A DNA stretch of 64,000 nt from Candidatus Giovannonibacteria bacterium (GCA_016186825.1 JACPKW010000004.1:64428-128427), one strand, 5' to 3'. Shown: positions 39,713-54,491, numbered from the stretch's first letter. Numbers and translations: made by a program. The notes: a model not told the origin generated them from the sequence alone.

Positions 39713-40516
39713 GTGATTTTCAGATATAAATTTTTTCGGATTCCGGTAATTATGCTCGCGCTCGCTTTTTTTGCGCTGGTTTATTTTGTAAGCGCGGGCA
39801 GCGCTGATGATCTTTCAGGGTGGGCTTGGTCTGAAAATATCGGCTGGATCAGTTTTAATTCTGTGAATTTGAATAGGGGCGCGAACTACGGAGTTCGCAT
39901 CAGCAACTCTGGAAATCTTTCAGGTTATGCTTGGTCTGAAAATATCGGCTGGATAAGTTTTAACGAAAATTCCGGATGTCCGAAGTCGCCTTGCGTCCCG
40001 AGATTAAACCGCGACACTGGTGAGGTTTCGGGATGGGCGCGTGCGCTTTCCGCTGATAATAAAGGGTGGGATGGATGGATAAGTTTCCGTGGCTCGGGAT
40101 ACGGCGTTACTGTATCAAACTGCCTTTGGGATGGCTGGGCTTGGGGGTCAGATGTTGTCGGCTGGGTTCATTTCAAAGGAGCTGGATACGGTGTGGCTGC
40201 TAAAGACCAAGGCTGTATCGAAGAGCCTCTGCCACCTCCGCCACCGCCTCTGGTGTGTCCTTCTGGACAAGTGCGCCCGCATCGAACTTGCGAGGACGAG
40301 GTCTGCAAATTGGTTGATTCATGCGGAGTTTCTTCGTGCACTTCATCTTCCGAATGCAAGCCCAAAAAAGTTACCCAATGCTCGGATGGCATTGATAACG
40401 ATGGGGATGCAAAAGTTGATTATCGAACTTCACCGCTTCGTGCGGGACGCCCGAGCGATCCAGGCTGCTCCTCCCTCGAAGACGACAATGAGCGAAATTT
40501 GATTATTGAGATTTGA
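39713..40516 (+). CDS. secreted Trp-rich repeat protein with C-terminal MopE-like Cys/Asp motif; 3' end remodelled by cassette insertion
   Basis: Repeats SGWAWSENIGWISFN x2 plus degenerate copies; CSDGIDNDGDAKVDY...DPGC; the last 8 codons differ from the predicted ancestral end. Confidence 0.5.
   Translation: MIFRYKFFRIPVIMLALAFFALVYFVSAGSADDLSGWAWSENIGWISFNSVNLNRGANYGVRISNSGNLSGYAWSENIGWISFNENSGCPKSPCVPRLNRDTGEVSGWARALSADNKGWDGWISFRGSGYGVTVSNCLWDGWAWGSDVVGWVHFKGAGYGVAAKDQGCIEEPLPPPPPPLVCPSGQVRPHRTCEDEVCKLVDSCGVSSCTSSSECKPKKVTQCSDGIDNDGDAKVDYRTSPLRAGRPSDPGCSSLEDDNERNLIIEI
40446..40491. repeat. 46 bp direct repeat (copy 1) = target-site duplication of HicAB cassette
   Basis: GACGCCCGAGCGATCCAGGCTGCTCCTCCCTCGAAGACGACAATGA, identical at 41096-41141. 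Confidence 0.85.
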
Positions 40517-40576: not shown

Positions 40577-40807
40577 ATGGCGAAGACAAAAAAACAATTC
40601 ACCGCCATTTATAAAAAAGCCGGGGGATGGTATTTGGGATGGATTGAAGAAATTCCCGGAGTCAACAGCCAAGGCAAAACGCTTCGAGAAGTTAAAAATA
40701 ATCTCAAAGAGGCCTTAACGCTTATAATTGAAACAAATAAAGCGCTTTTGTCCAAAGATGAGCCTTCCGGCAAAAGAATTCGAGAAGTGCTCTCGGTTTC
40801 TGTTTAA
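40577..40807 (+). CDS. hicB: HicB-family antitoxin (UPF0150)
   Basis: GWYLGWIEEIPGVNSQGKTLREVKNNLKEALTLIIE matches HicB N-terminal fold. Confidence 0.6.
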   Translation: MAKTKKQFTAIYKKAGGWYLGWIEEIPGVNSQGKTLREVKNNLKEALTLIIETNKALLSKDEPSGKRIREVLSVSV

Positions 40808-40815
40808 TTTGTTTT

Positions 40816-41013
40816 TTGATGAGGCGCGCTGACTTAATCCGTCATTTAGTAAAAGAGGGTTGTATTTTTGTTCGCGAAGGGGGTAGTCATAGCGTATTTT
40901 TTAATCCAGCAACTAGGCGTTCATCAACTGTACCGCGGCATAATGAAATTCATTACTTTTTGGCTCGAAAAATTTGCCGTGACTTGGGGATAAGAGAGCT
41001 TAGAAAAAAATAA
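40816..41013 (+). CDS. hicA: HicA-family mRNA interferase toxin
   Basis: LVKEGCIFVREGGSHSVFFNP...TVPRH with the GSH signature of HicA/YcfA. Confidence 0.75.
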   Translation: MMRRADLIRHLVKEGCIFVREGGSHSVFFNPATRRSSTVPRHNEIHYFLARKICRDLGIRELRKK

Positions 41014-41095: not shown

Positions 41096-41141
41096 GACGC
41101 CCGAGCGATCCAGGCTGCTCCTCCCTCGAAGACGACAATGA
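41096..41141. repeat. 46 bp direct repeat (copy 2)
   Basis: Identical to 40446-40491; in the host-gene frame this copy continues ...DDNEKF-stop. Confidence 0.85.
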
Positions 41142-41162: not shown

Positions 41163-42788
41163 TTAATCAATTCTTTCTAGACAGTAAACCTCGTTTGCAT
41201 CCGTAGAGACAAAATATCTTTTTGTGTTTTCATTATAAACTACTTTTTGAGTAATTTTTTCAGTGACCTGGAAAACTCTTGTTGCTTTTCCAGTTTCCGG
41301 ATTGAATTCATATAAAGTTCCTCCATTAGAGCCCACATAAACATTTCCATCAATAATATTTGGGGTTGCTATAATTCTGCCACTCGTTGCAAACTGCCAT
41401 TTCATTTCTCCGGTTCTTAAATCAAAACAGTAAATATTTTTGTCTGTGGATGTAAAATAAACTTTGCTGTCTCTTACAACCGGACTCGAATAAATAATAT
41501 CTTCTGTTTTAAATTTTCCAATAACGTTTCCCGTATCAAGATCCAATGCATATTCGTTTTTATCAAATGAACCAAAGAGGAGAAGATTTGTTTCAATGTC
41601 GAATGCAAGGGAAGCTTTTATTTCGCCTCCTGTTTCATATTTCCAAAGAAGTGTTCCATTTTTCGCATTGAATAAATAAACTGTATTATCATTTCCTCCG
41701 ATCGCAACAATTTGTTTTTCTTTGCAATAAGCCGGTGAGCAGTGCACATATTCCGGCACTTTATAATCCCAAATTTTTTCTCCGGTATCCATCTTCAAAG
41801 CGGCGATTCCTCCCTTTCTTTTGAAAAGTCCAAACTCTAGTCCTATGAATACCAAATTTAAATCTGGCGCAAGAGCGGGCGATGAACCGATCCAGTCTGC
41901 TTCAGAATATTTCCAAATAATCTTTCCGTCTTTCGCATTCTGGCAGTAAAAATTACCATCGTAAGAGCCGAAATATATCATTTTTTTATTTATTGCAGGT
42001 GAAGAAAAGATACTTTTACCCATTGAAGGATAGCCAACTTTATATTTCCAAGCCACCGAACCGTCATTTTGATTTATGGCCCATAAAAATCCGTTATCAC
42101 TTCCGAAATAAATTTTTTCATTGTCCATGCACGGTGTTGATTTCGGTACAACGTGAAAAAGATTTGCATCAGGGGCCTGAAATTTCCACATAATTTTGAA
42201 TCTTTCTTGGGGAGTAAATCTTTTTTTAGGACTCATTGAAAGCCCGAAGTCTTTTAACGAGAAAAGATAGGTCAAATTAATATTTCTTTTTTTAATAAAA
42301 TCGAAATCATCATTTCCGCTGAAATTCATTATTGGAAAGATGCGGGAAACAATTTTTCCCGTTTCTTCTATAATCCGGATTTGACGCAGAAAAGTTGATC
42401 CGCTATTTATTATATCGTCAACTAAAATAATCGGCGTGTTATCCAATTCTCCTTCAATCAATTTTTGGAGTCCTATGCTTTTGCGAGCTTTTCTGATCAT
42501 AAAACCGTTTACTGGTTTGCCGATCTGATGGGAACGAAGAACAATGGCTCCAATTAACGGCACGGCGGCTAATTCTTGGCCTCCGACTTGAAATGGATAT
42601 TCTTTTTCAAATTTTTCCCAAAAAATATCAACGATTAAATCAAGCGCCTCGGGCTTTAAAAAAATATTTCTTAAATCAAACAGCCAATTTTCTCGTTCAC
42701 CAGTTGGAGAAATGATTATATGGGTTTTTGAAGTGGGAAGAGCGTCCCTTTTAATAATATTTTTAAGCTTTTCTAATTTTTGTTCCAC
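41163..42788 (-). CDS. fusion protein: orotate-PRTase-like (type I phosphoribosyltransferase) N-domain + 8-bladed PQQ/BamB-like beta-propeller
   Basis: GKPVNGFMIRKARKSIG...PIILVDDIINSGST matches PyrE motifs; C-terminal repeated YFGSxDGxLxAxxxxDGxxxWKY blades; start overlaps SagB-like gene stop. Confidence 0.6.
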   Translation of the reverse strand: MEQKLEKLKNIIKRDALPTSKTHIIISPTGERENWLFDLRNIFLKPEALDLIVDIFWEKFEKEYPFQVGGQELAAVPLIGAIVLRSHQIGKPVNGFMIRKARKSIGLQKLIEGELDNTPIILVDDIINSGSTFLRQIRIIEETGKIVSRIFPIMNFSGNDDFDFIKKRNINLTYLFSLKDFGLSMSPKKRFTPQERFKIMWKFQAPDANLFHVVPKSTPCMDNEKIYFGSDNGFLWAINQNDGSVAWKYKVGYPSMGKSIFSSPAINKKMIYFGSYDGNFYCQNAKDGKIIWKYSEADWIGSSPALAPDLNLVFIGLEFGLFKRKGGIAALKMDTGEKIWDYKVPEYVHCSPAYCKEKQIVAIGGNDNTVYLFNAKNGTLLWKYETGGEIKASLAFDIETNLLLFGSFDKNEYALDLDTGNVIGKFKTEDIIYSSPVVRDSKVYFTSTDKNIYCFDLRTGEMKWQFATSGRIIATPNIIDGNVYVGSNGGTLYEFNPETGKATRVFQVTEKITQKVVYNENTKRYFVSTDANEVYCLERID

Positions 42789-42789
42789 T

Positions 42790-43536
42790 CTATTGTAATT
42801 TGCCTAAAACTGATAAGTGAACTGTTGATTCTTCTTCATTGTCAATATCCAGCATTAGTTCTATTTTTTCATTTGAATAGCCAGCTAAATGGCAGCACCC
42901 TATGTTCAAAGCCGAGCTGATAAGCGCAATATTTTGCATTAAATGCCCTGATTCATTTAAAACGATTTTATATCCGAAGTCTTTGTATTTGATAAAATTT
43001 CTGTCCCAAACTGACGTAAGGATAACAAAAAGAGCTGCGTCCTTTGACCATGGATAAAACATAGCTTCTTTAATAATTTTTATTCCTTCAGATTCAATCA
43101 GCTCTTCAAGCGCATGTTTTTTTACATTGTAGTGATAAATGCCTCTGTCTAAATCAGTTACATTTTGTGCTCCGATATAAATTTCTAAGGGGTATCGTGA
43201 CCCGCCTGAAGGATAGAATCTTTTTGATCCATTCCATTCCCCATTATCCGGAATTTTTCTGATTCCGCCCCCGAAATATAGAAGAGTCGAAAGTTCTTCA
43301 AATGTAATCGGTTTATTGCTGAATTCTCTTGTTGAATGGCGGTTTTTAAGGGCAGATTCTAAATTTCCAAGCTCTAAAAAATTCCATGATAAAGGAATCA
43401 AATTTAATCGAGGATATTCTTTGAAATACACTGTTTTCCAGGATTTCGGCCAAGTTTTCGGGTCGCTAGGCCCAGTCCCGGATTTAAATTTAAAATTTAT
43501 TTCTTTATGAAATAATTTTGAGAGAGCTCCAATCAT
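42790..43536 (-). CDS. SagB/McbC-type (nitroreductase-fold) dehydrogenase of azole RiPP pathways
   Basis: NRHSTREF and YPSGGSRYPLEIY motifs; 4 nt overlap with YcaO gene. Confidence 0.75.
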   Translation of the reverse strand: MIGALSKLFHKEINFKFKSGTGPSDPKTWPKSWKTVYFKEYPRLNLIPLSWNFLELGNLESALKNRHSTREFSNKPITFEELSTLLYFGGGIRKIPDNGEWNGSKRFYPSGGSRYPLEIYIGAQNVTDLDRGIYHYNVKKHALEELIESEGIKIIKEAMFYPWSKDAALFVILTSVWDRNFIKYKDFGYKIVLNESGHLMQNIALISSALNIGCCHLAGYSNEKIELMLDIDNEEESTVHLSVLGKLQ

Positions 43537-45005
43537 GGAAAAGGATGAGGTTCTTGATTTAATGTTAGCGCGGCTTTATATCCCATTTTTTCAGGGATTT
43601 CTTTCAGGCGTTTGCCTCCGAAATATGGGATTGACTCGTTTAAGTGCATTGGCTGGAGTTCAGAAATAATTACTTTTGCGCTAAAAATTCCAAGCTTTTC
43701 AATTTCAGGTGTAGTTATTTTAACATAACAAGCTTCATAATTTTTTTTGCTTAATTCATCTGATAGGATTTTTAATTTTTCCTTGAAATACTCTTGTGTT
43801 TCTCTCAACTCGAACATTCGTTTTTTCAGATCTATCTTCACTTTTTCTCCGCTAAATATGAATTCTATTTTGTTCAAATTTTCTGGCCTGGACCAATAAA
43901 TTAATCTTTCTTCTCGTCCTATTTGTTTTTCATTTATATCATTTTTGAATTTTCTTTTTAATGAATAACGAACTATTAATGCTTCTGACAACGAATCGAT
44001 TATTGCTTGCTTAAAGTCAAAATCAGCGCTCGCACCTACACAAAAAGCAGGGCCTAATCCTGTTCTATCGAGTATTACGGCGAGGTAGATATGAACGGGA
44101 AAATCGCTCGGGAGTCGAACTATGTATGGTTCGAGCCTATATCGCTGAAAGTTTTTAATTATTGCATTTATTTCCTCATCTTGAGCACTGACGTAATCTA
44201 GATCGACAACTTCGGGCGATAATTTATTTAAATAGGTGATCATAAATGCATCTCTTTCGATAACTTCCATAATTCCTTTCACTATAGCTTCAACCATGTT
44301 TCTACCCGAGGCTAACCCTGTTGTTATGCACCATCTAAGAAGCGGTTCTTTTCGATTTTGTGTCGGGCTTAATCTTTGATTTCTATAAGCAAAGTTGGAG
44401 CTTGCAAGCTGAAGAGGGCAATACATTTTTTCGTTGCCCTGAACTGAAAAAGCCTCGAGCCACCTAAGCTCTGTCTGAGTATTAAATTTGAGATTCGATA
44501 AATTACTTTTTTGCTCTTCCGAAAAACCGGCAAGTTTAAATATATTTAATGCCTTGCCTTTCAAATCTTCATAATTGCTTTCAACTGAATTTTTCAGCAA
44601 ATGGTCTGAACTGGACCAAAGTGATCGTTCAACTCCTTCTGCGGTCGCGCGCCATATCGCCTTCACTTCGTTATTGAATTCCACTCCTGTGCCTAATTTT
44701 ATATTGCTTTCTTTGTTGCTATTCACGTTGTAAATATATATGAAAGGTTCATCTGGATAACGTCTCCCCTTTTTTATATTTTCTATTATTCCCATTGACT
44801 GAAGTTGGTACAGAGTATCAATGGCAACCAGCATCTCTTGACTTTTGTCAGCTAAAGTATCAGGGATTTTAACTAAAAGTTCAGAGCCAAAATATTTTTC
44901 AAGGTTTTTTAATAAAAACTTGGGCCATATAGAGAAAATCCCACCCTTATTAGGTTTTTTTAGGAAATCTTCGGCTTTTTTAGTAATTTCAAGTTTTTTT
45001 CCCAT
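43533..45005 (-). CDS. ycaO: YcaO-domain cyclodehydratase (TOMM D protein) with C-terminal PxPxP motif
   Basis: TGLASGRNMVEAIVKGIMEVIERDAF YcaO signature; C-terminus ...QEPHPFP. Confidence 0.8.
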   Translation of the reverse strand: MGKKLEITKKAEDFLKKPNKGGIFSIWPKFLLKNLEKYFGSELLVKIPDTLADKSQEMLVAIDTLYQLQSMGIIENIKKGRRYPDEPFIYIYNVNSNKESNIKLGTGVEFNNEVKAIWRATAEGVERSLWSSSDHLLKNSVESNYEDLKGKALNIFKLAGFSEEQKSNLSNLKFNTQTELRWLEAFSVQGNEKMYCPLQLASSNFAYRNQRLSPTQNRKEPLLRWCITTGLASGRNMVEAIVKGIMEVIERDAFMITYLNKLSPEVVDLDYVSAQDEEINAIIKNFQRYRLEPYIVRLPSDFPVHIYLAVILDRTGLGPAFCVGASADFDFKQAIIDSLSEALIVRYSLKRKFKNDINEKQIGREERLIYWSRPENLNKIEFIFSGEKVKIDLKKRMFELRETQEYFKEKLKILSDELSKKNYEACYVKITTPEIEKLGIFSAKVIISELQPMHLNESIPYFGGKRLKEIPEKMGYKAALTLNQEPHPFP

Positions 45006-45129
45006 TTACACACCTATAGTAGTTGTGGCTTCTAAATTAAATGTCTATTATTAAATTGTGCTGATAACTTCAATATAGATAGGTTTAATTTACATTAGCG
45101 TCTTAAAAAAGGGAAGCCGTGGTTTTTAC

Positions 45130-46269
45130 GTGATTGACTCAATAAATCAAAAGAAAATAGGCGCACTAGATATAAAAAATATATTATTATTAGTTATTAT
45201 TTTAATAATAGGAGTATTCTTGTACACTAATTTTTCTTTAAAACCCGATTTAAAACCCGATTTTCAGCAAGCTTTATCTCAGGCAGCAGAGCTGAGAGAT
45301 ATAGATTCCAAAAAAGCTGCTGAGAAATTTGAGATCGCACTTGCTTTGGCAAAAACCCCCGAACAAAAAGCTATTGCTAAATTATTCATTGCAAATAATT
45401 ATTTGGATGTTGAGCCTGCAAAGGGGATGAAGCTTTTAAAAGAGATTGTGGCAGATAATTCTATGCCTTCGATGCAACGTGCTTTTGCAATACAATTTAT
45501 TGCGGATAAATATATGCTGGGTTTACATTCTACGAAATTTGCTCGAGAAAATATTTTCAATGATTCTCCTTTCGATTCGTTTATTTTACCTGGTAATGAT
45601 AAAGATACAGATGCTGCGAATATAATATTGAAAGACCGAGTTGGCATTAGAAAAATTTATGAATTTGCCACAGATACTTTCCCCATTCCGGTCGCGAATT
45701 TTTGGGTAGCAGAATGGCATGCAAGAAGAGTGTTAATGTCAAACGAATATTCAAACTTGCCACTAGTTGAAGAAAGAGTGGAATATATCAAGAAAACTAA
45801 AGAATATATTGAAAAAGGTGATTTGGCGCTACCTGCTTTTATTTTGCATGAAGGTGAAAACAGTCAAGTGGCTTACGCTTATTGGGTGAAGGGATTAGCG
45901 CTCGGGTATCTTTATGAACTAGAAAAAAAATCTGAGTTACAAATTGAAGCGGAAGAAAGCTTTACAAAAGCATTGCAGATTCTGAAAAGTGGTTCGACTG
46001 ATTATATGAAATTACAATCCCTTTGGGCTAGTTTCTATTATGCTGATTTTCTTGCAACAAGTTTTGGTGTTGACAAAAAGCTTGAAGTTAAGAAAAGTCT
46101 TTCATATATTATGGAGCCACGTTTTTTTAATGATTTCGTTTTTTTGAAATATTTAAGGGTTGTAAAAGATGATAAAGACAGCTATACCCGAAAAAGAATA
46201 ATGCGATTGACTGAGCAGAATGTAGAATTCAAAGATTTTTTAATACGTTTAGGATGGGAGTTCAATTAG
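45130..46269 (+). CDS. hypothetical membrane-anchored alpha-helical protein (379 aa), cluster-associated
   Basis: N-terminal TM helix; no Cys; possible immunity or scaffold role (inference only). Confidence 0.35.
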   Translation: MIDSINQKKIGALDIKNILLLVIILIIGVFLYTNFSLKPDLKPDFQQALSQAAELRDIDSKKAAEKFEIALALAKTPEQKAIAKLFIANNYLDVEPAKGMKLLKEIVADNSMPSMQRAFAIQFIADKYMLGLHSTKFARENIFNDSPFDSFILPGNDKDTDAANIILKDRVGIRKIYEFATDTFPIPVANFWVAEWHARRVLMSNEYSNLPLVEERVEYIKKTKEYIEKGDLALPAFILHEGENSQVAYAYWVKGLALGYLYELEKKSELQIEAEESFTKALQILKSGSTDYMKLQSLWASFYYADFLATSFGVDKKLEVKKSLSYIMEPRFFNDFVFLKYLRVVKDDKDSYTRKRIMRLTEQNVEFKDFLIRLGWEFN

Positions 46270-46297
46270 TAAATTTTATTTTGCAACAAATAAAAAT

Positions 46298-46648
46298 ATG
46301 GGAGTCATAAAAAAACCAACTCGCAAGATCATTTCTCTAATACTTCCTGTCTTGAGCATTTTGGGTTTGGCTTTAATGAAAATACCCAAAGGCGAATATC
46401 ATTTAAGGGAGGCTGACAGAAAAATTTCTAAACTCTTTAAAATTGATAACTTTGCAGTTAATGAAGTTAATGCTGATATTGTCGAAGGCGGTTCCGGCGG
46501 AGATGGTGGTGGTTCTGTAAGTGATGACGGTTCTGGTGGTTGCGGAAGTGGCGGTTGCGGTTCTGGCGGAGATGGTGGAGGTACTGATGGCGGATGTGAT
46601 GCGGGAGATGGTGGTGATGACAGTGGCGACGACGGCGACGGCAAGTAA
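46298..46648 (+). CDS. candidate TOMM precursor peptide with Gly/Ser/Cys/Asp-rich core (microcin B17-like)
   Basis: C-terminal 50 aa GGSGGDGGGSVSDDGSGGCGSGGCGSGGDGGGTDGGCDAGDGGDDSGDDGDGK; alternative start at 46376 would give a soluble 38 aa leader. Confidence 0.5.
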   Translation: MGVIKKPTRKIISLILPVLSILGLALMKIPKGEYHLREADRKISKLFKIDNFAVNEVNADIVEGGSGGDGGGSVSDDGSGGCGSGGCGSGGDGGGTDGGCDAGDGGDDSGDDGDGK

Positions 46649-46667
46649 ATAATTTTTTTTCTCTTTA

Positions 46668-48089
46668 TTGAAAAGAATTTCTTTTTCTTTGTATTTTATT
46701 ATATGGAAAATCATGGAAAATTGTACTGAAGATCTAATAATAAGACCTGAAAAATCATTCAAACCTAGTATAAATTTTTCAAATCTTCTTGGAAATTCTC
46801 ATTTCGCAGAAAATTTAGAACCAATAATAAGTTCTCTCCGCGAATCGCAGTATTGGCCATTATCAAAGTTGGAGCAGATTCGCGAAGAGCGATTTCGAAA
46901 TTTATCTCATGATATTCGATCTTCTAAATTTTGGAGTGAATATTTCAAGAAATATGCAATTTCTACTTCTTCAAGTGAGGTATCAGAAGAATTATTAAAA
47001 TTTCCTGTTATTAATCGAAATGACTTCAGGAACTGGGGTAAGAATGTCTTTATTTATCAAAAAGATTTAAATATATTCAAAACTATTACAAGTGGGACAA
47101 GCGGGACTCCTTTAGAAATTATTCTGGACAAAAAAACTGCATCTATTGCTTATTTTTCCTTTTTCTTCAGAAATCCAATTTTTGAAAAAATTGATTTAGG
47201 TATATTGAATAGAAAATTTATTGTTAGTTTGGGAAACCATGGTTTAAGAAGATGGTTTAGGGATTTTATTTATCTATTTTCCATTTCTCCATCAGATCTT
47301 GAAAAAAAAGAAGTTCGCCAGAAAATATATAAACAGTTTGAAAAAATACCTGATGGAATGCTCGGAGGGTTTGCGTCTGTTGTCTTGAAGTTCGCTGAAT
47401 ATGCCGCCGATGAAAAAATAAAATTTCCGGGTCTATCTGCGATTAAAATCAGCAGTGAAGGGATTGGTTTGAATGATAGAACTTTTATTGAAAAGACTTT
47501 TGGCGCTCCTGTCCTGAATGAATTGAATTGTTCTGAAGCTGGCATGATTGGGTTCGAATGCCCTGAAAACCTTGGAAAATTTCATCTTAATGCTGAAAGA
47601 ATAATCATGGAGATTGTTGGAGAAAACAATGAAGCATTAGGGAAAAATAAAGAAGGTAAAATTATAATCACAGCCTTGGACCGTATAGCGATGCCTATAA
47701 TTCGTTATGAAATAGGAGATCGTGGAAAATTACTTTCTGAAATTTGTCGTTGTGGAAGAACTCTGCCATTGTTTGAATTTACTGGTCGTCAAAACAATAG
47801 TTTAATTTTTTCTGACGGGAAAAAAATTCGTTCAATTATAATACAAAGTGCATTAATCAAAAGTGGTTTGGCGAAAAAATGTAATTTCATCCAACTAAAG
47901 CAGCTAAATCCATACGATTTCCAATTCACAATTATTCCTTCACCTCTCTATTCCAAAGAGGATGAAACAAAAATAAGGGTGATTCTAACAAATCTTACGG
48001 AAAACAGAAAAATAAAAATTGATTTCGAATATAAAAACATTTCCGATTTAAAAAATAATAAACCATCTTTTTTTGTTCCTTTGCAATAA
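46668..48089 (+). CDS. PaaK/CapK/F390-synthetase-family adenylate-forming enzyme
   Basis: TSGTSGTPL AMP-binding motif, IRYEIGDRG; table start is TTG, probable ATG at 46713. Confidence 0.55.
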   Translation: MKRISFSLYFIIWKIMENCTEDLIIRPEKSFKPSINFSNLLGNSHFAENLEPIISSLRESQYWPLSKLEQIREERFRNLSHDIRSSKFWSEYFKKYAISTSSSEVSEELLKFPVINRNDFRNWGKNVFIYQKDLNIFKTITSGTSGTPLEIILDKKTASIAYFSFFFRNPIFEKIDLGILNRKFIVSLGNHGLRRWFRDFIYLFSISPSDLEKKEVRQKIYKQFEKIPDGMLGGFASVVLKFAEYAADEKIKFPGLSAIKISSEGIGLNDRTFIEKTFGAPVLNELNCSEAGMIGFECPENLGKFHLNAERIIMEIVGENNEALGKNKEGKIIITALDRIAMPIIRYEIGDRGKLLSEICRCGRTLPLFEFTGRQNNSLIFSDGKKIRSIIIQSALIKSGLAKKCNFIQLKQLNPYDFQFTIIPSPLYSKEDETKIRVILTNLTENRKIKIDFEYKNISDLKNNKPSFFVPLQ

Positions 48090-48869: not shown

Positions 48870-49694
48870 ATGGAAAGTTTTAGCAAAAAAGATATTCTGA
48901 TTTCTTTAATTTTTTTACTGTTTTTAGGATTTTTTACGTTCCAAGATGATTTCTCTGGAATTGCATGGGGGAAGTATAAAAATGCAGATTTTGCCCTGGC
49001 GCTCAATGGAAATAATGCAAAGCTCGCATATGAAATTGGAGATTATTATTTCAACGGGCGTGCATGTGTTGAAACAGCCGGAAAAGGATGCTATGACCTG
49101 GAGAAAGCGGAGGCGGGATATAAAAAAGCGATTTCGATAAACCCGAAATTTGAACGCGCGCATTATCAGCTTGCGAGGATTTATTTTGTTAAAGGCGAGC
49201 GGGAGCGAGCGATGAAAGAAATTAATTTGGAACTCGAATATTATCCCGATTACAAGCGGTCTTATTACGTGCGCGGGCTTATAAACGGCTATGACGGCAG
49301 GTTGGAAGCTGCGGAAAAAGATTTTCTCGAATTTATTTCTTGGGCGCCTTACGAATGGGGAGGATATAACGATCTTGCATGGATTCTCTTGAAATCAAGC
49401 AAATACGAGCAAGCAAAAGAAATTGCGCTTGCGGGATTAAAATATCCGAGCACCCGAGATAACCCCTGGCTTTTGAATGCTTTAGGAGCGTCAGAGCTTA
49501 ATTTAAGGGATTATGATTCTGCAAAAAGTACTTTCGAAAAAGTCAGCGAAATTCTCATGGATTTTCCAGAAAGCGAATTTGAGAAAGCTTATCCGGGTAA
49601 TAATCCGCTATCAGTCGGGGCTGGGCTTACGGCATTCAAAACCGCCGTTTTAGAAAATTTAAAAAAAAGCGAGGAAGGGACGCGCAGGGATTAA
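48870..49694 (+). CDS. TPR-repeat protein, membrane-anchored
   Basis: N-terminal TM; repeated Ala/Tyr/Leu 34-residue-like helices (AHYQLARIYF..., YYVRGLI...). Confidence 0.5.
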   Translation: MESFSKKDILISLIFLLFLGFFTFQDDFSGIAWGKYKNADFALALNGNNAKLAYEIGDYYFNGRACVETAGKGCYDLEKAEAGYKKAISINPKFERAHYQLARIYFVKGERERAMKEINLELEYYPDYKRSYYVRGLINGYDGRLEAAEKDFLEFISWAPYEWGGYNDLAWILLKSSKYEQAKEIALAGLKYPSTRDNPWLLNALGASELNLRDYDSAKSTFEKVSEILMDFPESEFEKAYPGNNPLSVGAGLTAFKTAVLENLKKSEEGTRRD

Positions 49695-49712: not shown

Positions 49713-51719
49713 TTGCTCGAAATGAGTGTCTTAAGACTTATAATAAGATTAATGCAGAAATGGATTGAGACCAGCGTTTCGGAGAAAATCACAACAGGGC
49801 TCGGGTTTTTTATTGTTTTGTTATTTGCTGTAGCCGTCTTTAATTCGAGCGCTGCAAAAGTCGGTCAGAGCGCAAAATGGACCCAGTCTGTAGGGAACGC
49901 AATAACAGTTCCGGCATGCGTTGGAAGCGAAGATCATGATGTCATGATCAATCTTTCCTTGACAATGGATTGCGCCTCTGACCCGAAGCGTGTTGTTTTG
50001 ACTTGGAATGATATCAATGAAATTGTGTCAGAGAGCGGACAAGATACGGTTAAATATGATATTTACAGGTGCGATGGTGCTTGCGTTGAATTTATTAAAA
50101 TTGGGAGTGTCCCCGATACTTTGGATGGTATTGGTAATTACACATTTTCTGACAGCTCCGGCGTTCCAAGCAGTTCGACCTATCAATATCAAATCGAGGC
50201 GTCCGATGCCGTAAACAAAACGGCTTATAGTAATATAGCTTCCATAGTCCCAACTTGTGGCGGGGGTTCTCCCGAGCTCTCTGCGGATTTGACGGCGGAA
50301 CCGTCTAGCGGGGCGGCGCCTTTGAACGGCGTGGATTTGTTCGCAAGAATTGACGGGACTGCACAGGGCGCGATTAATTATTCTTTCGATTGTAATCCGG
50401 CGGATGGCAATGATACGCCAGAAGAGCAATATAAAGGCGTTGGAGGTGGGCTCGTTGGCCATTGGAAATTTGATGAGGCGGCTGACGGAAATATTGTCGC
50501 GCGGGATTCATCCGGGTATGATAATGTCGGCACGCTTATCAACGGCCCTGTAAGATTGGACGGCAAACTCGGCCGCGCCCTGGATTTCAACGGTTCGAGC
50601 AATTATGTTGAAATTTCTGATTCTGCCTCGCTTGATGCTTCCCAGATGACATTTTCTGCGTGGATTCGCACAACAGATGATCAGGGCATGATCGCGGAGC
50701 GCTACAGTTACGATCCCATAACCGGGGGACATGGCTGGAGGCTTGAGGTTTGGCCCGGCGGAACTCTATTTGGAGCAGTTTTTATAAACGGCAATAATTA
50801 TAATCCATGGCCTTACGGCAAGGGTCCTGTAATTAATGACGGGAGCTGGCATCACGTTGCAATGACCGCGGACGGCTCAACAGGAATATGGTACTTCGAC
50901 GGAAATGTCGCCACGGGACCGGGACTTAATAATCCATTCGCGCTTGCGGGACCGGTTGATGATACCGATGCGGGCGTTACAATCGGCAATGGTGTGGCGG
51001 GCTTCTTTAACGGTGTAATTGACGATGTTCGTTTGTATAACCGCTCGCTTTCAGCTGGGGAAATCAAAGATATGTATGACGCGAATGTCGCAGGATATCT
51101 TGACGGGAAAAAAGCAGTTGACATTTGCAGTTATCCTGTGAAAGGAGATTATTTTCCAAAAGTAACGGTTACGCGCGGGGGCAAAGCAGCAGAGGACACG
51201 ACGGACATTCCAGTTTCTGTAACAGGTTGTACGGATGATAGCCAGTGTGCAACCGGAAACTGCAACGAGGCAACCGGAATTTGCGAAGCCGCCCCCAATT
51301 TCTTTCTCGAAGATTCGGGTCCGATGAAAGCGAGAATTATCGGGAACAGTTCAACCTGGTCGGAGCCGACTACGATTAGCGTGACAAATGTCGTCAACTT
51401 TTCGGATAATGTTAAGCTTTCGCGCGATGGTTCAAAACCCGTCCGGGACTGCGTTACCAATGTGGAAAAAATCTTTTCCGGCACCTATAACTTTGATCCC
51501 TCGCAGATTTCATCTCCCTACTCAAGCGGATCGGAATTTAAAATCAGAGTTGCCGCCACGAATCCTCCGGGCTGCTACAAAATACCTATCAAGGGTGAAG
51601 GCGGAGGAATTTCGAGAGAGCACGAGGTTAAGCTGAACGTAGATATAAATAATCCCTCGTATAAAGAAGTATTTGCACCGACGCTTCGGTTATTGGCATC
51701 CCTGTTTAATATTTTTTAG
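49713..51719 (+). CDS. large surface protein: Fn3-like + LamG/concanavalin-like lectin domain + shared C-terminal module
   Basis: LVGHWKFDE...GSWHHVAMTADGS...IDDVRLYNRSLSAGEI is a LamG_3 signature; C-terminal ~200 aa homologous to C-terminus of 52119 protein. Confidence 0.55.
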   Translation: MLEMSVLRLIIRLMQKWIETSVSEKITTGLGFFIVLLFAVAVFNSSAAKVGQSAKWTQSVGNAITVPACVGSEDHDVMINLSLTMDCASDPKRVVLTWNDINEIVSESGQDTVKYDIYRCDGACVEFIKIGSVPDTLDGIGNYTFSDSSGVPSSSTYQYQIEASDAVNKTAYSNIASIVPTCGGGSPELSADLTAEPSSGAAPLNGVDLFARIDGTAQGAINYSFDCNPADGNDTPEEQYKGVGGGLVGHWKFDEAADGNIVARDSSGYDNVGTLINGPVRLDGKLGRALDFNGSSNYVEISDSASLDASQMTFSAWIRTTDDQGMIAERYSYDPITGGHGWRLEVWPGGTLFGAVFINGNNYNPWPYGKGPVINDGSWHHVAMTADGSTGIWYFDGNVATGPGLNNPFALAGPVDDTDAGVTIGNGVAGFFNGVIDDVRLYNRSLSAGEIKDMYDANVAGYLDGKKAVDICSYPVKGDYFPKVTVTRGGKAAEDTTDIPVSVTGCTDDSQCATGNCNEATGICEAAPNFFLEDSGPMKARIIGNSSTWSEPTTISVTNVVNFSDNVKLSRDGSKPVRDCVTNVEKIFSGTYNFDPSQISSPYSSGSEFKIRVAATNPPGCYKIPIKGEGGGISREHEVKLNVDINNPSYKEVFAPTLRLLASLFNIF

Positions 51720-51726
51720 GCATTTT

Positions 51727-52119
51727 ATGTCGAGTCAGTCTTTTTTTCTGAAGCCCTCATTCCAAAGAGATGTTTTTCGGATTGTCATCGGAATATTTAT
51801 CGTATCTTTGATCTTGCTCGGGCTTTCTTATCTCCCGTTTAGGAGTTCTATTACTTCAGCGGAACCCATTTTCGGGACGATTACTTTTTTAGATGAGTAT
51901 CAGAAATTCATAAAAATTCAAGCGGATGGGAATCCTCCGAAAACGTGGGACGTTATGATCCGCGGCGTAAAAATAAACAAAGATACAGGCGGCAATGTTG
52001 AGGAAGGCGCAATGGGCGATTTTTTGATCGGCGCGAAAATAAAAATCACGGCGAAGCCCGATTCAGCTGATCCGGAGAATCACGTTATTACCCCGGATTT
52101 AATTACGATTATCAGATAA
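51727..52119 (+). CDS. hypothetical membrane-anchored protein (~130 aa)
   Basis: Internal Met start with TM helix RIVIGIFIVSLILLGLS. Confidence 0.35.
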   Translation: MSSQSFFLKPSFQRDVFRIVIGIFIVSLILLGLSYLPFRSSITSAEPIFGTITFLDEYQKFIKIQADGNPPKTWDVMIRGVKINKDTGGNVEEGAMGDFLIGAKIKITAKPDSADPENHVITPDLITIIR

Positions 52120-54491
52120 TGAAAGATTTTAAAATTAACCGGCTAAAAATTGCGTCTGCATTTTTTATAATATCCCTTGCCGGGTTATTGGTTTTTATTC
52201 TTGAAAAGAATTCGCCAATTCAAACCGCCGAGGCCGCTTCGGCGCAAAACGGAGAAGACGGGCAAGCGGGAGGATGCTTTAACCAAGGCGACGATTGGAC
52301 CGGAAAAACTGGCGGTCTGGCTAGTGGACTGAACGGTGGCGCAGGAGGAAAAGGCGCACCTGCTGGCTGCGGGTTTCCCGCTGGGCGCGGAGGAAATGGC
52401 GGAAGAGGCGCGGATGTGGCAACTCTCATAACTGCGGGCCGCGGAGGAGCGGGTGGACAAGGCGGCAGCGCATGCAGCGCGCCTGGGGGAGATTGTCTAG
52501 GCCAACCGTCTGAAACAGCAGGAGATGGAGGGCGCGGAGGCGATGGCGGCGATCTTACATATGGTTCAAACATCTCCGGTCTTGCCGCCTATGCGCTCCG
52601 CGGAGGACAGGGAGGAAATGGCGGCGCGCCAGGTGCTGGAAATAACATGGGCGGAAGAGGAGGCGATGGCGGTAACGGAGGAAGTGTAACCTTGAATGGC
52701 GATGTAACCGTAACGAGCGGTGACTTTGTGACTGACTATGTTTTTGGCGATAATATTATTTGGGGAGGTTTAGGGGGGACTGGAGGAGGCGCTTATGGAG
52801 TTCTATCCTATAAAAAGGAATACGGCAGTGGCGGAAATGGAGGTGATGTGACAATAAAAGGCAAATTAAACATCGCGGGAGTTAGCGGCCATTCTGTGGT
52901 AAGAGGCGGCGGAGGAGGAGTCGGATCAAATGGTGGCAATGGCGGCAATGTGCGCGTTTTAAATATTTTTATCCAAAATTCCGCACTTAATTACGATTTT
53001 TTTGAATCTATCGATGGTGCGCTCTCCGGAGGCTCAGGAAATTTTGCAACAAGCACCCTCATCATTTCGGGAAGAAAAGGGGGCGATGGAGGTAATGTGG
53101 TTGTTGAGGGTAATGTTGAGCTGCTTAACACAGTAGGCCAGCAAAAAATATATATGGCGTGGGCTGGCGAGGGGGGCGGCGGTAATTCGGGCGTACCGCT
53201 CGGTTCTTCCTATGCTGGAAAAGGCGGCGAAGGCGGAAAAGTAATTGTAAAAGGCGATTTATCTTTGAAAATTTCGGCGGCTGCTGACGGAGCACAGCAA
53301 AATGTCAATGGTATTGGGGGTGGCGCGGGAGGAGGGGGACTTGACGGAGGCGGAGCAGGAGGATGTGTGAGAGTTGGCGGCAATCTGATCAGAGAGAGAA
53401 ATAATAGGGGGAGTGACATTGGTATGAGAGGGTTTGTTGGGGGACAGGGTTATTCCCAGCCGGGTGGAAAAGGCGGCGATGCGGTTTTAGACGGGTCTAT
53501 CACAAATATTTTATCTACTTCCATGGACGTGCTCGTAGGATCCGGAAATCTTGGAACTCCGAGTGGAGCAGACGGAAAAACAAAAGCTGAAGGCGGTGTA
53601 TGTGATGGGGAGCCAATGATTCCTGCTGTAGTTATTACAGCGACTCCTTCAACGCCATCGGATACTTGCCCGGCTTTTGTAAATTTAAGCTGGTCGGACG
53701 CGCACACAAGCAATTACAACATTTACCGCTGTGAAGGCGCGGGATGCGCCCCCTCTATTTGGCGCATAGGGTGGACTTCAACAAGTTTAGTGGATAACAC
53801 CGTAACAAGCGGCGGAATCTATAGGTATATAATTAAGGCTTTTAATGGGGCTGATTTGAGCGCGGAATCAAATATCGTGGAAGGTGTGCCGCAATGCGCA
53901 TGTCCCGTGGGCGAACAAAATCCTCATTATACTTGCGAAAACGGGGCTTGTGTCGAAAAAACTTTCTGCGGTGTCCAGACCTGCACAGGTCCGGGAGATA
54001 ATTCATGCCTCGTTTCTGATTTTTCAATTGTGAGTTCAAATTCGATTTTTGCCATAGTGATTGGCACAAGCCACGCTGAATCCACGGAATCAACCATAAG
54101 CGTTACTAATGCACAGGGTATTACAGGTGATGTGAAATTGGGTTTTGATAACGCGAGAGCGATAATAGATTGCTCAACCGAAGTTGAAAAAACGATTCCG
54201 GGAGCGCAGTATCTTTTCGAGCCTTCGAAAAATATTCCCGAACCGTATTTAGAAACATCTCAATTTAGCGTGGATGTGCCCGCGCAAACGCCGAACGGAT
54301 GTTATAGAATTCCAATCAAGGGCGATAACGGCAATGGCATAAATACTATTACGCGCACTACTACTGTCGATTTGAATGTCATTTCCGCTCCGCCGGCATT
54401 TAAAGAAGTATTTAATCCTTTATTTAGATTATGGACAATAACAAAGACTCCCGTCTCATCCCTGCTAGTATCATTGCCGCTGGCTTTCTGA
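52119..54491 (+). CDS. large Gly-rich repeat surface protein (GGxGGxVxV/L repeats) with Fn3-like and shared C-terminal module
   Basis: More than 10 repeats like GGNGGDVTIKGKLNIAG; C-terminal CYRIPIKGDNGNGI...KEVFNPLFRLW parallels CYKIPIKGEGGGI...KEVFAPTLRLL of the 49713 protein. Confidence 0.5.
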   Translation: MKDFKINRLKIASAFFIISLAGLLVFILEKNSPIQTAEAASAQNGEDGQAGGCFNQGDDWTGKTGGLASGLNGGAGGKGAPAGCGFPAGRGGNGGRGADVATLITAGRGGAGGQGGSACSAPGGDCLGQPSETAGDGGRGGDGGDLTYGSNISGLAAYALRGGQGGNGGAPGAGNNMGGRGGDGGNGGSVTLNGDVTVTSGDFVTDYVFGDNIIWGGLGGTGGGAYGVLSYKKEYGSGGNGGDVTIKGKLNIAGVSGHSVVRGGGGGVGSNGGNGGNVRVLNIFIQNSALNYDFFESIDGALSGGSGNFATSTLIISGRKGGDGGNVVVEGNVELLNTVGQQKIYMAWAGEGGGGNSGVPLGSSYAGKGGEGGKVIVKGDLSLKISAAADGAQQNVNGIGGGAGGGGLDGGGAGGCVRVGGNLIRERNNRGSDIGMRGFVGGQGYSQPGGKGGDAVLDGSITNILSTSMDVLVGSGNLGTPSGADGKTKAEGGVCDGEPMIPAVVITATPSTPSDTCPAFVNLSWSDAHTSNYNIYRCEGAGCAPSIWRIGWTSTSLVDNTVTSGGIYRYIIKAFNGADLSAESNIVEGVPQCACPVGEQNPHYTCENGACVEKTFCGVQTCTGPGDNSCLVSDFSIVSSNSIFAIVIGTSHAESTESTISVTNAQGITGDVKLGFDNARAIIDCSTEVEKTIPGAQYLFEPSKNIPEPYLETSQFSVDVPAQTPNGCYRIPIKGDNGNGINTITRTTTVDLNVISAPPAFKEVFNPLFRLWTITKTPVSSLLVSLPLAF

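What the first reader, a model, noticed from the sequence alone, without database searches (positions are those of the whole stretch)
46298..46648. Candidate precursor peptide with an extremely Gly/Asp/Ser/Cys-rich core and an N-terminal hydrophobic segment
The core GGSGGDGGGSVSDDGSGGCGSGGCGSGGDGGGTDGGCDAGDGGDDSGDDGDGK has the Gly-flanked Cys/Ser spacing that yields thiazole/oxazole pairs in microcin B17, but it is unusually acidic. The annotated N-terminus contains a TM-like helix, whereas an internal Met at 46376 would give a conventional soluble leader. This could be a new membrane-tethered or highly anionic azole peptide class. The opposite-strand ORFs here are proline-rich artefacts.
Basis: partly seen in the sequence, partly recalled or inferred. 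Interest (0 to 1): 0.65.

Follow-up and report, generated by a model that had tools for sequence, protein, structure and literature searches.

The report
Signal-anchored azole-peptide precursor in Patescibacteria
The 116-residue ORF is real and is most likely the substrate of the neighbouring YcaO/SagB azole-forming enzymes; it belongs to a previously undescribed family of about 100 Patescibacteria precursors whose leader looks like a secretion signal anchor rather than a soluble leader.

Summary
ORF 46298-46648 (+) encodes 116 aa: a basic N-terminus, a 17-residue hydrophobic helix, a 30-residue spacer, V-N-A|D, then a 57-residue core (47% Gly, 25% Asp/Glu, 3 Cys). It lies in a low-GC six-gene island with a SagD-type YcaO, a SagB dehydrogenase, a PRTase-beta-propeller fusion, a TM helical protein (p379) and a PaaK-like ligase.

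By plain sequence search it is an orphan, but loci of YcaO homologues and a profile search reveal a family of 97 clusters. Members share the N-terminus M-x-I-I-K-K, a TM helix, an [AV]-x-A-D junction and a hypervariable acidic Gly/Ser/Asp/Cys core.

The conserved N-terminus rules out the internal Met start. Charge distribution and the Ala-x-Ala junction suggest Sec routing and signal-peptidase-like release, but this is inferred, and the cleavage site lies unusually far from the helix. No RRE/E1-like partner, transporter or protease is present.

CPR YcaO-nitroreductase "LAP" clusters were already reported by genome mining (Sharrar 2020). I therefore call this a new variant of a known kind. Interest 0.6.

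The parts
46298..46648 (+). Precursor ORF, 116 aa including the stop codon (HYW53_01890)
   Evidence: Family membership.
46298..46327 (+). Basic n-region MGVIKKPTRK (net +4, no acidic residue)
   Evidence: Conserved as M-x-[VI]-I-K-K in homologues. Charge analysis.
46328..46378 (+). Hydrophobic h-region or TM helix IISLILPVLSILGLALM (residues 11-27).
   Evidence: Kyte-Doolittle mean 2.4 over residues 11-29. A strong TM helix is present in 90 of 96 family members.
46379..46474 (+). Juxtamembrane leader/spacer (residues 28-59) ending in V57-N58-A59. It contains the conserved segment equivalent to N-L-S-x-L-E-x-K-A-K-x-L-F.
   Evidence: Alignments (L36 and A59 invariant or nearly so).
46466..46477 (+). 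Junction motif V-N-A|D ([AV]-x-A-D), the putative cleavage site between A59 and D60
   Evidence: Position -1 is Ala in 32/32 and -3 is A/V/T/S in 32/32. Strict [AV]xAD occurs in 82 of 96 unbiased family members.
46475..46645 (+). Core, residues 60-116: 27 Gly, 14 Asp/Glu, 8 Ser/Thr, 3 Cys (C82, C87, C100), net charge -13, C-terminal Lys
43533..45005 (-). YcaO cyclodehydratase (490 aa), SagD type, with C-terminus ...EPHPFP
   Evidence: Pfam YcaO 8.7e-46. TIGR03604 4.2e-59, 200.3 bits, just under the 219 cutoff. The two ExxER motifs and P486/P488/F489 are invariant. AF2 pLDDT 90.9; best PDB match is LynD, TMq 0.71.
42790..43536 (-). SagB-family FMN dehydrogenase (248 aa)
   Evidence: TIGR03605 1.6e-42, above cutoff; Pfam Nitroreductase. 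Adjacent to YcaO in nearly all loci.
41163..42788 (-). Type I phosphoribosyltransferase fused to a PQQ-like beta-propeller (541 aa); candidate tailoring or recognition protein
   Evidence: Present in 24/41 TM-type loci and 0/22 soluble-leader loci.
45130..46269 (+). p379: N-terminal TM helix plus an all-helical domain, with no family match. It ends 29 nt before the precursor, on the same strand.
   Evidence: Homologues lie next to the peptide in L009, L027, L093 and L094. The AF2 single-sequence model is all-alpha with pLDDT 58.7.
46713..48089 (+). PaaK-like (ANL superfamily) adenylate-forming ligase, 458 aa, starting 64 nt after the precursor
   Evidence: NCBIfam hits, all below their cutoffs. 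PDB phenylacetate-CoA ligases at 1e-15. Homologues in 8 other loci.
48870..49694 (+). TM-anchored TPR protein (274 aa), a conserved neighbour of TM-type clusters
   Evidence: Present in 32/41 TM-type loci and 0/22 soluble-type loci.

Best explanation
The ORF encodes the precursor (substrate) of the divergently transcribed YcaO cyclodehydratase and SagB dehydrogenase. These enzymes would convert its three Gly-flanked cysteines, and possibly some serines, into thiazoles and oxazoles. That would make it a linear azole-containing RiPP.

Unlike classical leaders, its leader is built like a signal anchor. It has a basic n-region, a 17-19-residue hydrophobic helix, a conserved ~30-residue juxtamembrane segment, and an Ala-x-Ala|Asp junction.

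The proposed sequence of events is:
1. The short protein is completed in the cytoplasm.
2. It is modified there by YcaO/SagB, and perhaps by the PRTase-propeller and the PaaK-like ligase.
3. It is inserted or exported N-in/C-out through the general Sec pathway.
4. The polyanionic Gly-rich azole peptide is then either released by cleavage after A59 or kept tethered at the cell surface, where the co-encoded TM-anchored TPR/helical proteins could bind it.

What is shown: the ORF, its family, the conserved architecture, and the obligatory co-location with YcaO-SagB. What is inferred: that it is the substrate, its topology, the cleavage, and the order of events.
For: 1. YcaO (ATP-binding ExxER motifs and the C-terminal PxPxP-like motif are invariant) and SagB lie next door. 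The YcaO fold is closest to the azoline-forming LynD.
2. Loci of YcaO homologues at 25-55% identity carry small ORFs of the same architecture. Two loci carry two paralogous peptides (L055, L057).
3. The reverse test: peptides found by profile, without reference to YcaO, are flanked by YcaO and SagB in 10 of 10 informative contexts.
4. An exhaustive search gives 97 representative clusters. Of these, 90/96 have a TM helix and 89/96 have the AxA[DE] junction. Core Cys is 7.5%, and 78/85 cores have at least one Cys.
5. The leader is positionally conserved: 36% pairwise identity against 8% expected from composition. The core is length-variable and low-complexity: 35% against 20% expected, with 56% gaps. 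This is the pattern typical of RiPP precursors.
6. More distant members of the same YcaO clade have ordinary soluble-leader precursors with Cys/Gly-rich cores directly upstream, e.g. L067, L054, L074. Gly/Cys-rich small ORFs therefore look like this clade's substrates.
7. Topology and junction: the N-side has net charge +3.0 against -0.16 on the C-side, with N greater than C in 30/32. Position -1 is Ala in 32/32 and -3 is A/V/T/S in 32/32. Cores are almost free of Lys/Arg.
8. The island contains no dedicated transporter or protease.
9. Precedent: bufferin RiPP precursors use Sec signal peptides and are modified before export (PMC11626156).
Against: - No azole has been observed; everything is genomic inference.
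- No E1-like/Ocin-ThiF partner or RRE was detected in any cluster. How the leader is recognised is therefore unexplained.
- The AxA junction lies 14-33 residues after the hydrophobic helix (32 in the window; family median 30). This is much further than the usual 3-7-residue c-region of signal peptidase I substrates.
- No signal peptidase I signature occurs in any locus.
- An N-in/C-out anchor places the core outside the cell, whereas YcaO and SagB are cytoplasmic and ATP/FMN-dependent. Modification would have to precede translocation.
- 7 of 85 family cores have no Cys at all, and the median is only 2. The Gly/Asp-rich character may therefore matter more than the heterocycles.
- The cluster is consistently adjacent to large surface-protein genes and extracytoplasmic TPR proteins. 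This also fits a structural envelope role.
Confidence: 0.62

Rival explanations
1. It is chiefly a structural, membrane-anchored polyanionic Gly/Asp-rich envelope protein, for example a cation-binding surface brush or a ligand of the co-encoded extracytoplasmic TPR proteins. YcaO/SagB would add at most one to three decorative azoles, and the protein would never be released as a free peptide.
For: - The TM anchor is conserved, and the charge pattern predicts an external tail.
- Cores are dominated by Gly, Ser and Asp, with a median of 2 Cys and none in 7 of 85.
- A C-terminal aromatic residue occurs in 24 of 85 members, reminiscent of C-terminal peptide ligands.
- TM-TPR genes track exclusively with TM-type peptides.
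- A surface-protein operon is a conserved neighbour.
- The AxA junction lies too far from the helix for a standard signal peptidase site.
Against: - Co-location with YcaO and SagB is obligatory: 10 of 10 informative contexts.
- Cys is about 7-fold enriched over typical proteins.
- The cores are hypervariable and some loci carry paralogous copies.
- The invariant Ala at position -1 is hard to explain without processing.
Confidence: 0.25
2. It is a conventional soluble-leader LAP precursor translated from the internal Met at 46376, and the upstream hydrophobic segment is not translated.
For: M27 exists in frame. Soluble leaders are the rule in characterised LAPs, and they occur in distant relatives of this YcaO.
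Against: The upstream 26 residues are the best conserved part of the family: M1 is invariant and I4/K5/K6 nearly so. Homologues have no Met at the position of M27. Independent gene callers start at 46298.
Confidence: 0.03
3. It is unrelated to YcaO: either a chance low-complexity ORF, or a protein that is merely a neighbour, with the enzymes acting on another substrate such as the nearby large Gly-rich surface proteins.
For: No experimental link exists. No recognisable RRE ties the enzymes to this leader. The window also encodes a 790-aa Gly-rich protein containing Cys (52119-54491).
Against: The architecture is conserved across 97 clusters and is adjacent to YcaO in every informative context. 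The large surface proteins are absent from, or distant in, many loci.
Confidence: 0.07

Closest known systems
Linear azol(in)e-containing peptides / TOMMs (microcin B17, streptolysin S, plantazolicin, phazolicin)
   Same: A YcaO cyclodehydratase and a SagB-type FMN dehydrogenase sit next to a small ORF whose C-terminal part is rich in Cys, Ser and Gly. As I recall, microcin B17 is similarly about 60% Gly.
   Different: - The leader is a signal-anchor-like TM segment rather than a soluble leader.
- No E1-like or RRE partner was detected.
- There is no ABC exporter, CAAX protease or TldD/E-type protease in the cluster.
- The core is strongly acidic, with only 3 non-contiguous Cys, so no fused bis-azole sites are expected.
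- Extra genes are present: the PRTase-propeller, a PaaK-like ligase and TM-TPR proteins.
CPR 'LAP' clusters reported by genome mining (Sharrar et al. 2020, PMC7298704)
   Same: These are YcaO-plus-nitroreductase clusters in Parcubacteria and Microgenomates with a putative 84-aa precursor next to the YcaO. They very probably belong to the same system; the family includes an 84-aa member, P0123.
   Different: That paper does not mention a transmembrane or signal-type leader, the AxAD junction or the accessory genes. Nothing has been characterised experimentally.
Bufferins (MNIO/DUF692-modified Cys-containing RiPPs, PMC11626156)
   Same: [quoted passage not shown] Cys residues are turned into heterocycles in the cytoplasm before Sec export and signal-peptidase cleavage. 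The authors describe this as rare among RiPPs.
   Different: The enzymes are unrelated: an MNIO with a DUF2063 partner making 5-thiooxazoles, not YcaO/SagB. Bufferins are folded small proteins with canonical signal peptides. Here the core is disordered and low-complexity, and the junction lies about 30 residues from the helix.
Heterocycloanthracin / sonorensin-type TOMM precursors (from memory)
   Same: The cores are repetitive and Gly/Cys-rich.
   Different: Those have soluble leaders and E1-like partners, and occur in Bacillus. No sequence relationship was detected here.

Membership tests
YcaO-dependent azol(in)e RiPP (TOMM/LAP) | YcaO cyclodehydratase with ATP/Mg-binding residues and a Pro-rich C-terminal motif | tested here: met
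   Pfam YcaO 8.7e-46. TIGR03604 SagD-type 200 bits, slightly under the 219 cutoff. ExxER occurs twice, and P486/H487/P488/F489 are conserved. Best structural match is LynD.
YcaO-dependent azol(in)e RiPP (TOMM/LAP) | FMN-dependent SagB-type dehydrogenase adjacent | tested here: met
   TIGR03605 1.6e-42, above cutoff. The sequence shows R-H-S-T-R and a K-Y motif. SagB is next to YcaO in nearly all loci.
YcaO-dependent azol(in)e RiPP (TOMM/LAP) | E1-like (C protein) or Ocin-ThiF partner, or a fused RRE, for leader recognition | tested here: not met
   No such domain was found in any cluster gene by Pfam or NCBIfam. The YcaO is not a fusion. RREs are hard to detect, so 'not detected' is not the same as 'absent'.
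YcaO-dependent azol(in)e RiPP (TOMM/LAP) | Small precursor with a conserved leader and a Cys/Ser/Thr-rich variable core | tested here: met
YcaO-dependent azol(in)e RiPP (TOMM/LAP) | Azol(in)e heterocycles in the product (-18/-20 Da each) | not testable with these tools
   This needs mass spectrometry.
Microcin B17 type | McbA-like precursor with contiguous G-S-C / G-C-S sites; McbB zinc-tetrathiolate partner; McbEFG export and immunity | tested here: not met
   No homology was found. Cys and Ser are never contiguous in the core. No McbB, McbE, McbF or McbG-like genes are present.
Sec-type signal peptide cleaved by signal peptidase I | Basic n-region, hydrophobic h-region, small residues at -3 and -1 | tested here: met
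   n-region net +3.0; -1 is Ala in 32/32; -3 is A/V/T/S in 32/32.
Sec-type signal peptide cleaved by signal peptidase I | Short c-region, with the cleavage site about 3-7 residues after the h-region | tested here: not met
   The gap is 14-33 residues and 32 in the window; the family median is 30.
Bufferins | MNIO (DUF692) enzyme with a DUF2063 partner | tested here: not met
   Neither is present in the cluster.
   10 of 10 informative peptide-ascertained contexts have YcaO and SagB adjacent. The context of most of the 97 clusters could not be examined.
RTX-type Ca-binding GGxGxD repeats | Nonapeptide repeats with a hydrophobic position; HemolysinCabind profile | tested here: not met
   No Pfam hit. 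The core has no hydrophobic residue at the repeat positions.

The most novel reading that the evidence does not exclude
Patescibacteria possess a distinct, lineage-wide RiPP system. In it, a YcaO/SagB pair without any RRE partner modifies signal-anchored precursors, and the general Sec pathway plus an Ala-x-Ala cleavage replace the dedicated exporter and protease. The polyanionic Gly-rich azole peptide is further tailored or activated at its C-terminus by a PaaK-like ligase (in some relatives by a fused Hint domain), and possibly by a PRTase-beta-propeller enzyme. It is then handed to co-encoded extracytoplasmic TPR proteins at the cell surface of these episymbionts.
Probability: 0.25. Interest if true: 0.8.

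Novelty: new variant of a known kind. Interest (0 to 1): 0.6.

Why it matters
CPR/Patescibacteria have tiny genomes and few biosynthetic clusters, so a conserved multi-gene peptide-modification system is likely to matter for their surface biology or their interaction with hosts.

Three consequences would follow if the signal-anchor leader is real:
- It would be, as far as I could find, the first YcaO-type RiPP routed through Sec. The only comparable case is the bufferins, which use MNIO enzymes.
- It would show a way of recognising substrates without an RRE.
- It would explain why standard RiPP genome-mining rules (soluble leader, RRE, ABC transporter/protease) under-describe these clusters.

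The system is directly testable by heterologous co-expression and mass spectrometry.

Tried and rejected
- A single-sequence search with the peptide found only itself. The family became visible only through YcaO-anchored loci and profile searches.
- Pfam and NCBIfam give no family for the peptide or for other family members.
- The promoter/terminator scan of 44.9-48.3 kb was no better than shuffles.
- The first attempt at search for related loci with a 40-sequence alignment failed for lack of a conserved stretch. A narrower alignment returned only 2 metagenome loci.
- The single-sequence AF2 model of p379 was too poor (pLDDT 58.7) to use for a fold search.
- A regex search for signal peptidase I signatures found nothing in any locus.
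- Literature searches for YcaO with transmembrane/signal peptidase, and with phosphoribosyltransferase/propeller, found no papers.
- Considered and rejected: the internal Met start, MccB17-like bis-azole sites, RTX-type calcium repeats, and a DNA microsatellite artefact.
- The link between a C-terminal Lys and the PaaK-like gene (Fisher p about 0.0006) is post hoc and rests on 4 loci. I treat it only as a lead.

Full report
**What is in the sequence.**
- Residues 1-10 (MGVIKKPTRK) are basic.
- Residues 11-27 are uniformly hydrophobic.
- Residues 28-59 form a charged, probably helical spacer ending in V-N-A.
- Residues 60-116 form a core with 27 Gly, 14 Asp/Glu, 8 Ser/Thr, 3 Cys (C82, C87, C100) and one Lys, at the C-terminus.
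- The internal Met is M27, at 46376.
- The two opposite-strand ORFs are mirror images of GGN-rich coding DNA.
- At DNA level there is only a weak 15-nt, 2.8-copy repeat.

**Neighbourhood.** The ORF lies in a six-gene stretch of about 34% GC, against about 45% for the rest of the window.
- On the minus strand are three genes. The first is a YcaO (Pfam 8.7e-46; SagD-type TIGR03604 at 200 bits, slightly under its cutoff). The second is a SagB-family dehydrogenase (TIGR03605, above cutoff). The third is a 541-aa fusion of a type I phosphoribosyltransferase to a PQQ-like beta-propeller.
- On the plus strand are three more. p379 is a 379-aa protein with an N-terminal TM helix and no family match; it ends 29 nt before the precursor. 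The precursor follows. A PaaK-like adenylate-forming ligase starts 64 nt after it.
- No transporter, protease, E1-like protein or RRE is present.
- The window is chromosomal (RecA, FtsK) and comes from a Candidatus Giovannonibacteria genome.

**From orphan to family.** A direct search of 5.8 billion proteins returned only the protein itself. The YcaO, however, has about 150 homologues of 30-55% identity, almost all from Patescibacteria.
- In four contexts fetched for such homologues, the YcaO-SagB-PRTase/propeller module recurs. A small ORF of the same build lies on the divergent side: M-x-I-I-K-K-P-x-K-K, a TM helix, N-L-S-x-L-E-N-K-A-K-x-L-F, A-x-A-D-I-P, then a Gly/Asp/Ser/Cys-rich tail.
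- A genome scan with a YcaO alignment gave 78 further loci.
- A screen that did not use the junction motif (TM helix, Gly-rich window, at least one Cys) found about 26 family-like ORFs, and 24 of them carry A-x-A-D.
- A motif-based screen found 34 ORFs in 32 loci, with two paralogous copies in L055 and in L057.
- Two more (L085, L086) emerged on inspection.

**The reverse test.** I therefore ascertained members by the peptide alone.
- A leader profile recovered 10 proteins, and a metagenome scan with a subfamily alignment recovered 2 loci.
- Every informative context has YcaO and SagB within about 3 kb. These are the window, L013, L017, L022, L027, L089, L090, L092, L093 and L094. One further locus (L091) is cut at the contig end.
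- An exhaustive HMM search of 1.84 billion representatives found 97 clusters at E <= 1e-3, nearly all 73-132 aa.
- In this sample, which is not biased by YcaO adjacency or Cys content, 90 of 96 have a strong TM helix. 89 of 96 have [AVTSG]-x-A-[DE], and 82 have strict [AV]-x-A-D.
- The pooled core is 34% Gly, 17% Ser, 17% Asp and 7.5% Cys. Median Cys is 2, and 7 of 85 cores have none.
- Median net charge is -6, and only 8 of 85 cores contain any Lys or Arg.
- The window peptide ranks 9th of 85 for Gly and 18th for acidity, so it is a typical member and not an outlier.

**Leader versus core.** In a 40-member alignment, leader pairwise identity is 36% against 8% expected from composition. The core is 35% against 20% expected and is 56% gaps. 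A conserved leader with a length-variable, low-complexity core is the pattern typical of RiPP precursors.

**The start codon.** The N-terminal M-x-I-I-K-K and the TM helix are the most conserved parts of the family (M1 invariant; I4, K5, K6 nearly so). Homologues have no Met at the position of M27. The annotated start at 46298 is therefore correct, and the soluble-leader alternative is not supported.

**Substrate inference.** Several lines support it.
- The YcaO alignment keeps both ExxER motifs and the C-terminal P-H-P-F-P invariant.
- From established knowledge of YcaO enzymes (Dunbar et al. 2014; Burkhart et al. 2017, recalled from memory), these are the ATP/Mg site and the Pro-rich motif typical of azoline-forming members.
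- The AF2 model (pLDDT 90.9) is closest to the cyanobactin heterocyclase LynD, with TMq 0.71.
- An adjacent SagB implies oxidation of azolines to azoles.
- More distant members of the same YcaO clade, in other lineages, have ordinary soluble-leader precursors directly upstream with Cys/Gly-rich cores. Examples are L067 ...GCGGASCSSGGGSGGNGGACSGG..., L054 and L074.
- I conclude that the window ORF is the YcaO/SagB substrate, with confidence of about 0.6-0.7.
- In the window core, Cys and Ser are never contiguous (G-G-C-G-S-G-G-C-G-S-G-G; G-G-C-D). Isolated azoles are therefore expected, not the fused pairs of microcin B17.

**Topology and processing (inferred).**
- Across 32 members, the segment before the helix has mean net charge +3.0 with almost no acidic residues. 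The 15 residues after it average -0.16, and N exceeds C in 30 of 32. By the positive-inside rule this predicts N-in/C-out.
- The junction obeys the signal peptidase I rule exactly: -1 is Ala in 32/32, and -3 is A/V/T/S in 32/32. The cores lack basic residues, which favours translocation.
- With no dedicated exporter or protease in the cluster, the most economical reading is Sec-dependent export and Ala-x-Ala cleavage. Bufferins are an experimental precedent for this (PMC11626156).
- Two facts argue for caution. The junction lies 14-33 residues beyond the helix (32 in the window), far more than a normal c-region. No signal peptidase gene is linked to the clusters.
- The peptide may therefore stay anchored, or be cut by another enzyme.
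- Because YcaO and SagB need ATP and FMN, modification would have to precede translocation. This is plausible for a 116-aa protein that is probably targeted post-translationally, but that too is inference.

**Accessory genes.**
- The PRTase-propeller occurs in 24/41 TM-type loci.
- TPR274-like proteins occur in 32/41.
- p379-like or C39-like/TPR proteins occur in 28/41.
- All three are absent from all 22 soluble-leader loci (p from 1e-6 to 4e-10).
- The TM-TPR proteins have N-terminal anchors and are probably extracytoplasmic. That is the compartment predicted for the exported core.
- PaaK-like ligases occur in 9 loci, including all 4 whose peptide ends in Lys (post hoc).

**What is already known.** Sharrar et al. 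2020 reported one LAP cluster in a Microgenomates genome, with YcaO, a nitroreductase, a peptidase and a putative 84-aa precursor. They also reported 110 similar clusters in 93 CPR genomes. The paper does not mention a transmembrane or signal-type leader. I found no paper describing TM- or signal-anchored YcaO substrates, or the PRTase-propeller association. The general kind is therefore known from genome mining. The signal-anchor leader, the AxAD junction, the RRE-less enzyme set and the accessory gene set appear to be undescribed.

**Verdict.** The finding is a new variant of a known kind. It is an in-silico lead of moderate to high interest (0.6), with clear experiments that could confirm or refute it.

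Noticed in passing
window 40446-40491 and 41096-41141; genes 40577-40807 and 40816-41013: A HicB-like/HicA toxin-antitoxin pair is flanked by a perfect 46-nt direct repeat that duplicates the 3' end of gene 39713-40516. All short-read contigs carrying the peptide begin inside the second copy. This looks like an insertion with target duplication, immediately next to the low-GC YcaO island.
   Followed up: partly
window 41163-48089: The six-gene YcaO island has about 34% GC against about 45% in the flanks. It may have been acquired horizontally, although homologous clusters elsewhere keep the same neighbours (TPR274 and the large surface proteins).
   Followed up: partly
L015 3187-4005 (-), L021 8134-8811 (-); proteins P0152, P0185, P0210: Some family members carry a Hint/intein domain directly after the Cys/Gly-rich segment (Pfam Hom_end_hint above cutoff). 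This would generate a C-terminal thioester on the core. Together with the PaaK-like ligase in the window, it hints that C-terminal activation or ligation of the core is part of the system.
   Followed up: partly
L010 7052-7843 (-) and 6134-7033 (-); P0171; L043: Other family variants have the TM helix, AxAD junction and Gly/Cys segment followed by a ~190-aa domain of unknown function. In these cases the YcaO substrate may be a protein rather than a peptide.
   Followed up: no
family-wide: The very last residue is Tyr in 20 of 85 members (Tyr, Trp or Phe in 24 of 85), although Tyr makes up only 1.2% of core residues. This may be a C-terminal recognition signal, for example for the co-encoded TPR proteins.
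   Followed up: no
window 41163-42788 (-): This is a type I PRTase with an intact PRPP loop (IILVDDIINSGST) fused to a PQQ-like beta-propeller. It is found only with TM-type precursors (24/41 against 0/22). Its role is unknown; it is a candidate tailoring enzyme or leader-binding partner.
   Followed up: partly
window 46713-48089 (+); L027, L050, L068: All four family peptides that end in Lys (...GK) have a PaaK-like ligase gene in the locus. Only 2-3 of about 25 other loci do (Fisher p about 0.0006; post hoc).
   Followed up: partly
window 49713-51719 (+) and 52119-54491 (+): The 668-aa LamG-domain protein and the 790-aa Gly-rich protein share a C-terminal motif K-E-V-F-x-P followed by a hydrophobic tail, which may be a sorting signal. 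The same gene order (TPR ~270 aa, ~600 aa, ~142 aa, ~800 aa) follows the peptide gene in L091 and partly in L090.
   Followed up: partly
L007 3470-4651 (-), L008 2850-4043 (-), L090-L092: In many loci the gene next to the peptide is a ~390-aa TM protein with C-terminal TPRs. Its N-terminal domain has a papain/C39-like sequence pattern in which the catalytic Cys position reads D-T-A. This may be a non-catalytic peptide-binding domain. Only weak NCBIfam support (C39_PA2778_fam, E 0.026).
   Followed up: no
L008 4548-4991 (+), L009 7486-7926 (+), L092 3922-4371 (-), L093, L094: A ~147-aa predicted lipoprotein gene lies immediately upstream of the YcaO in the closest relatives. It is absent from the window.
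   Followed up: no
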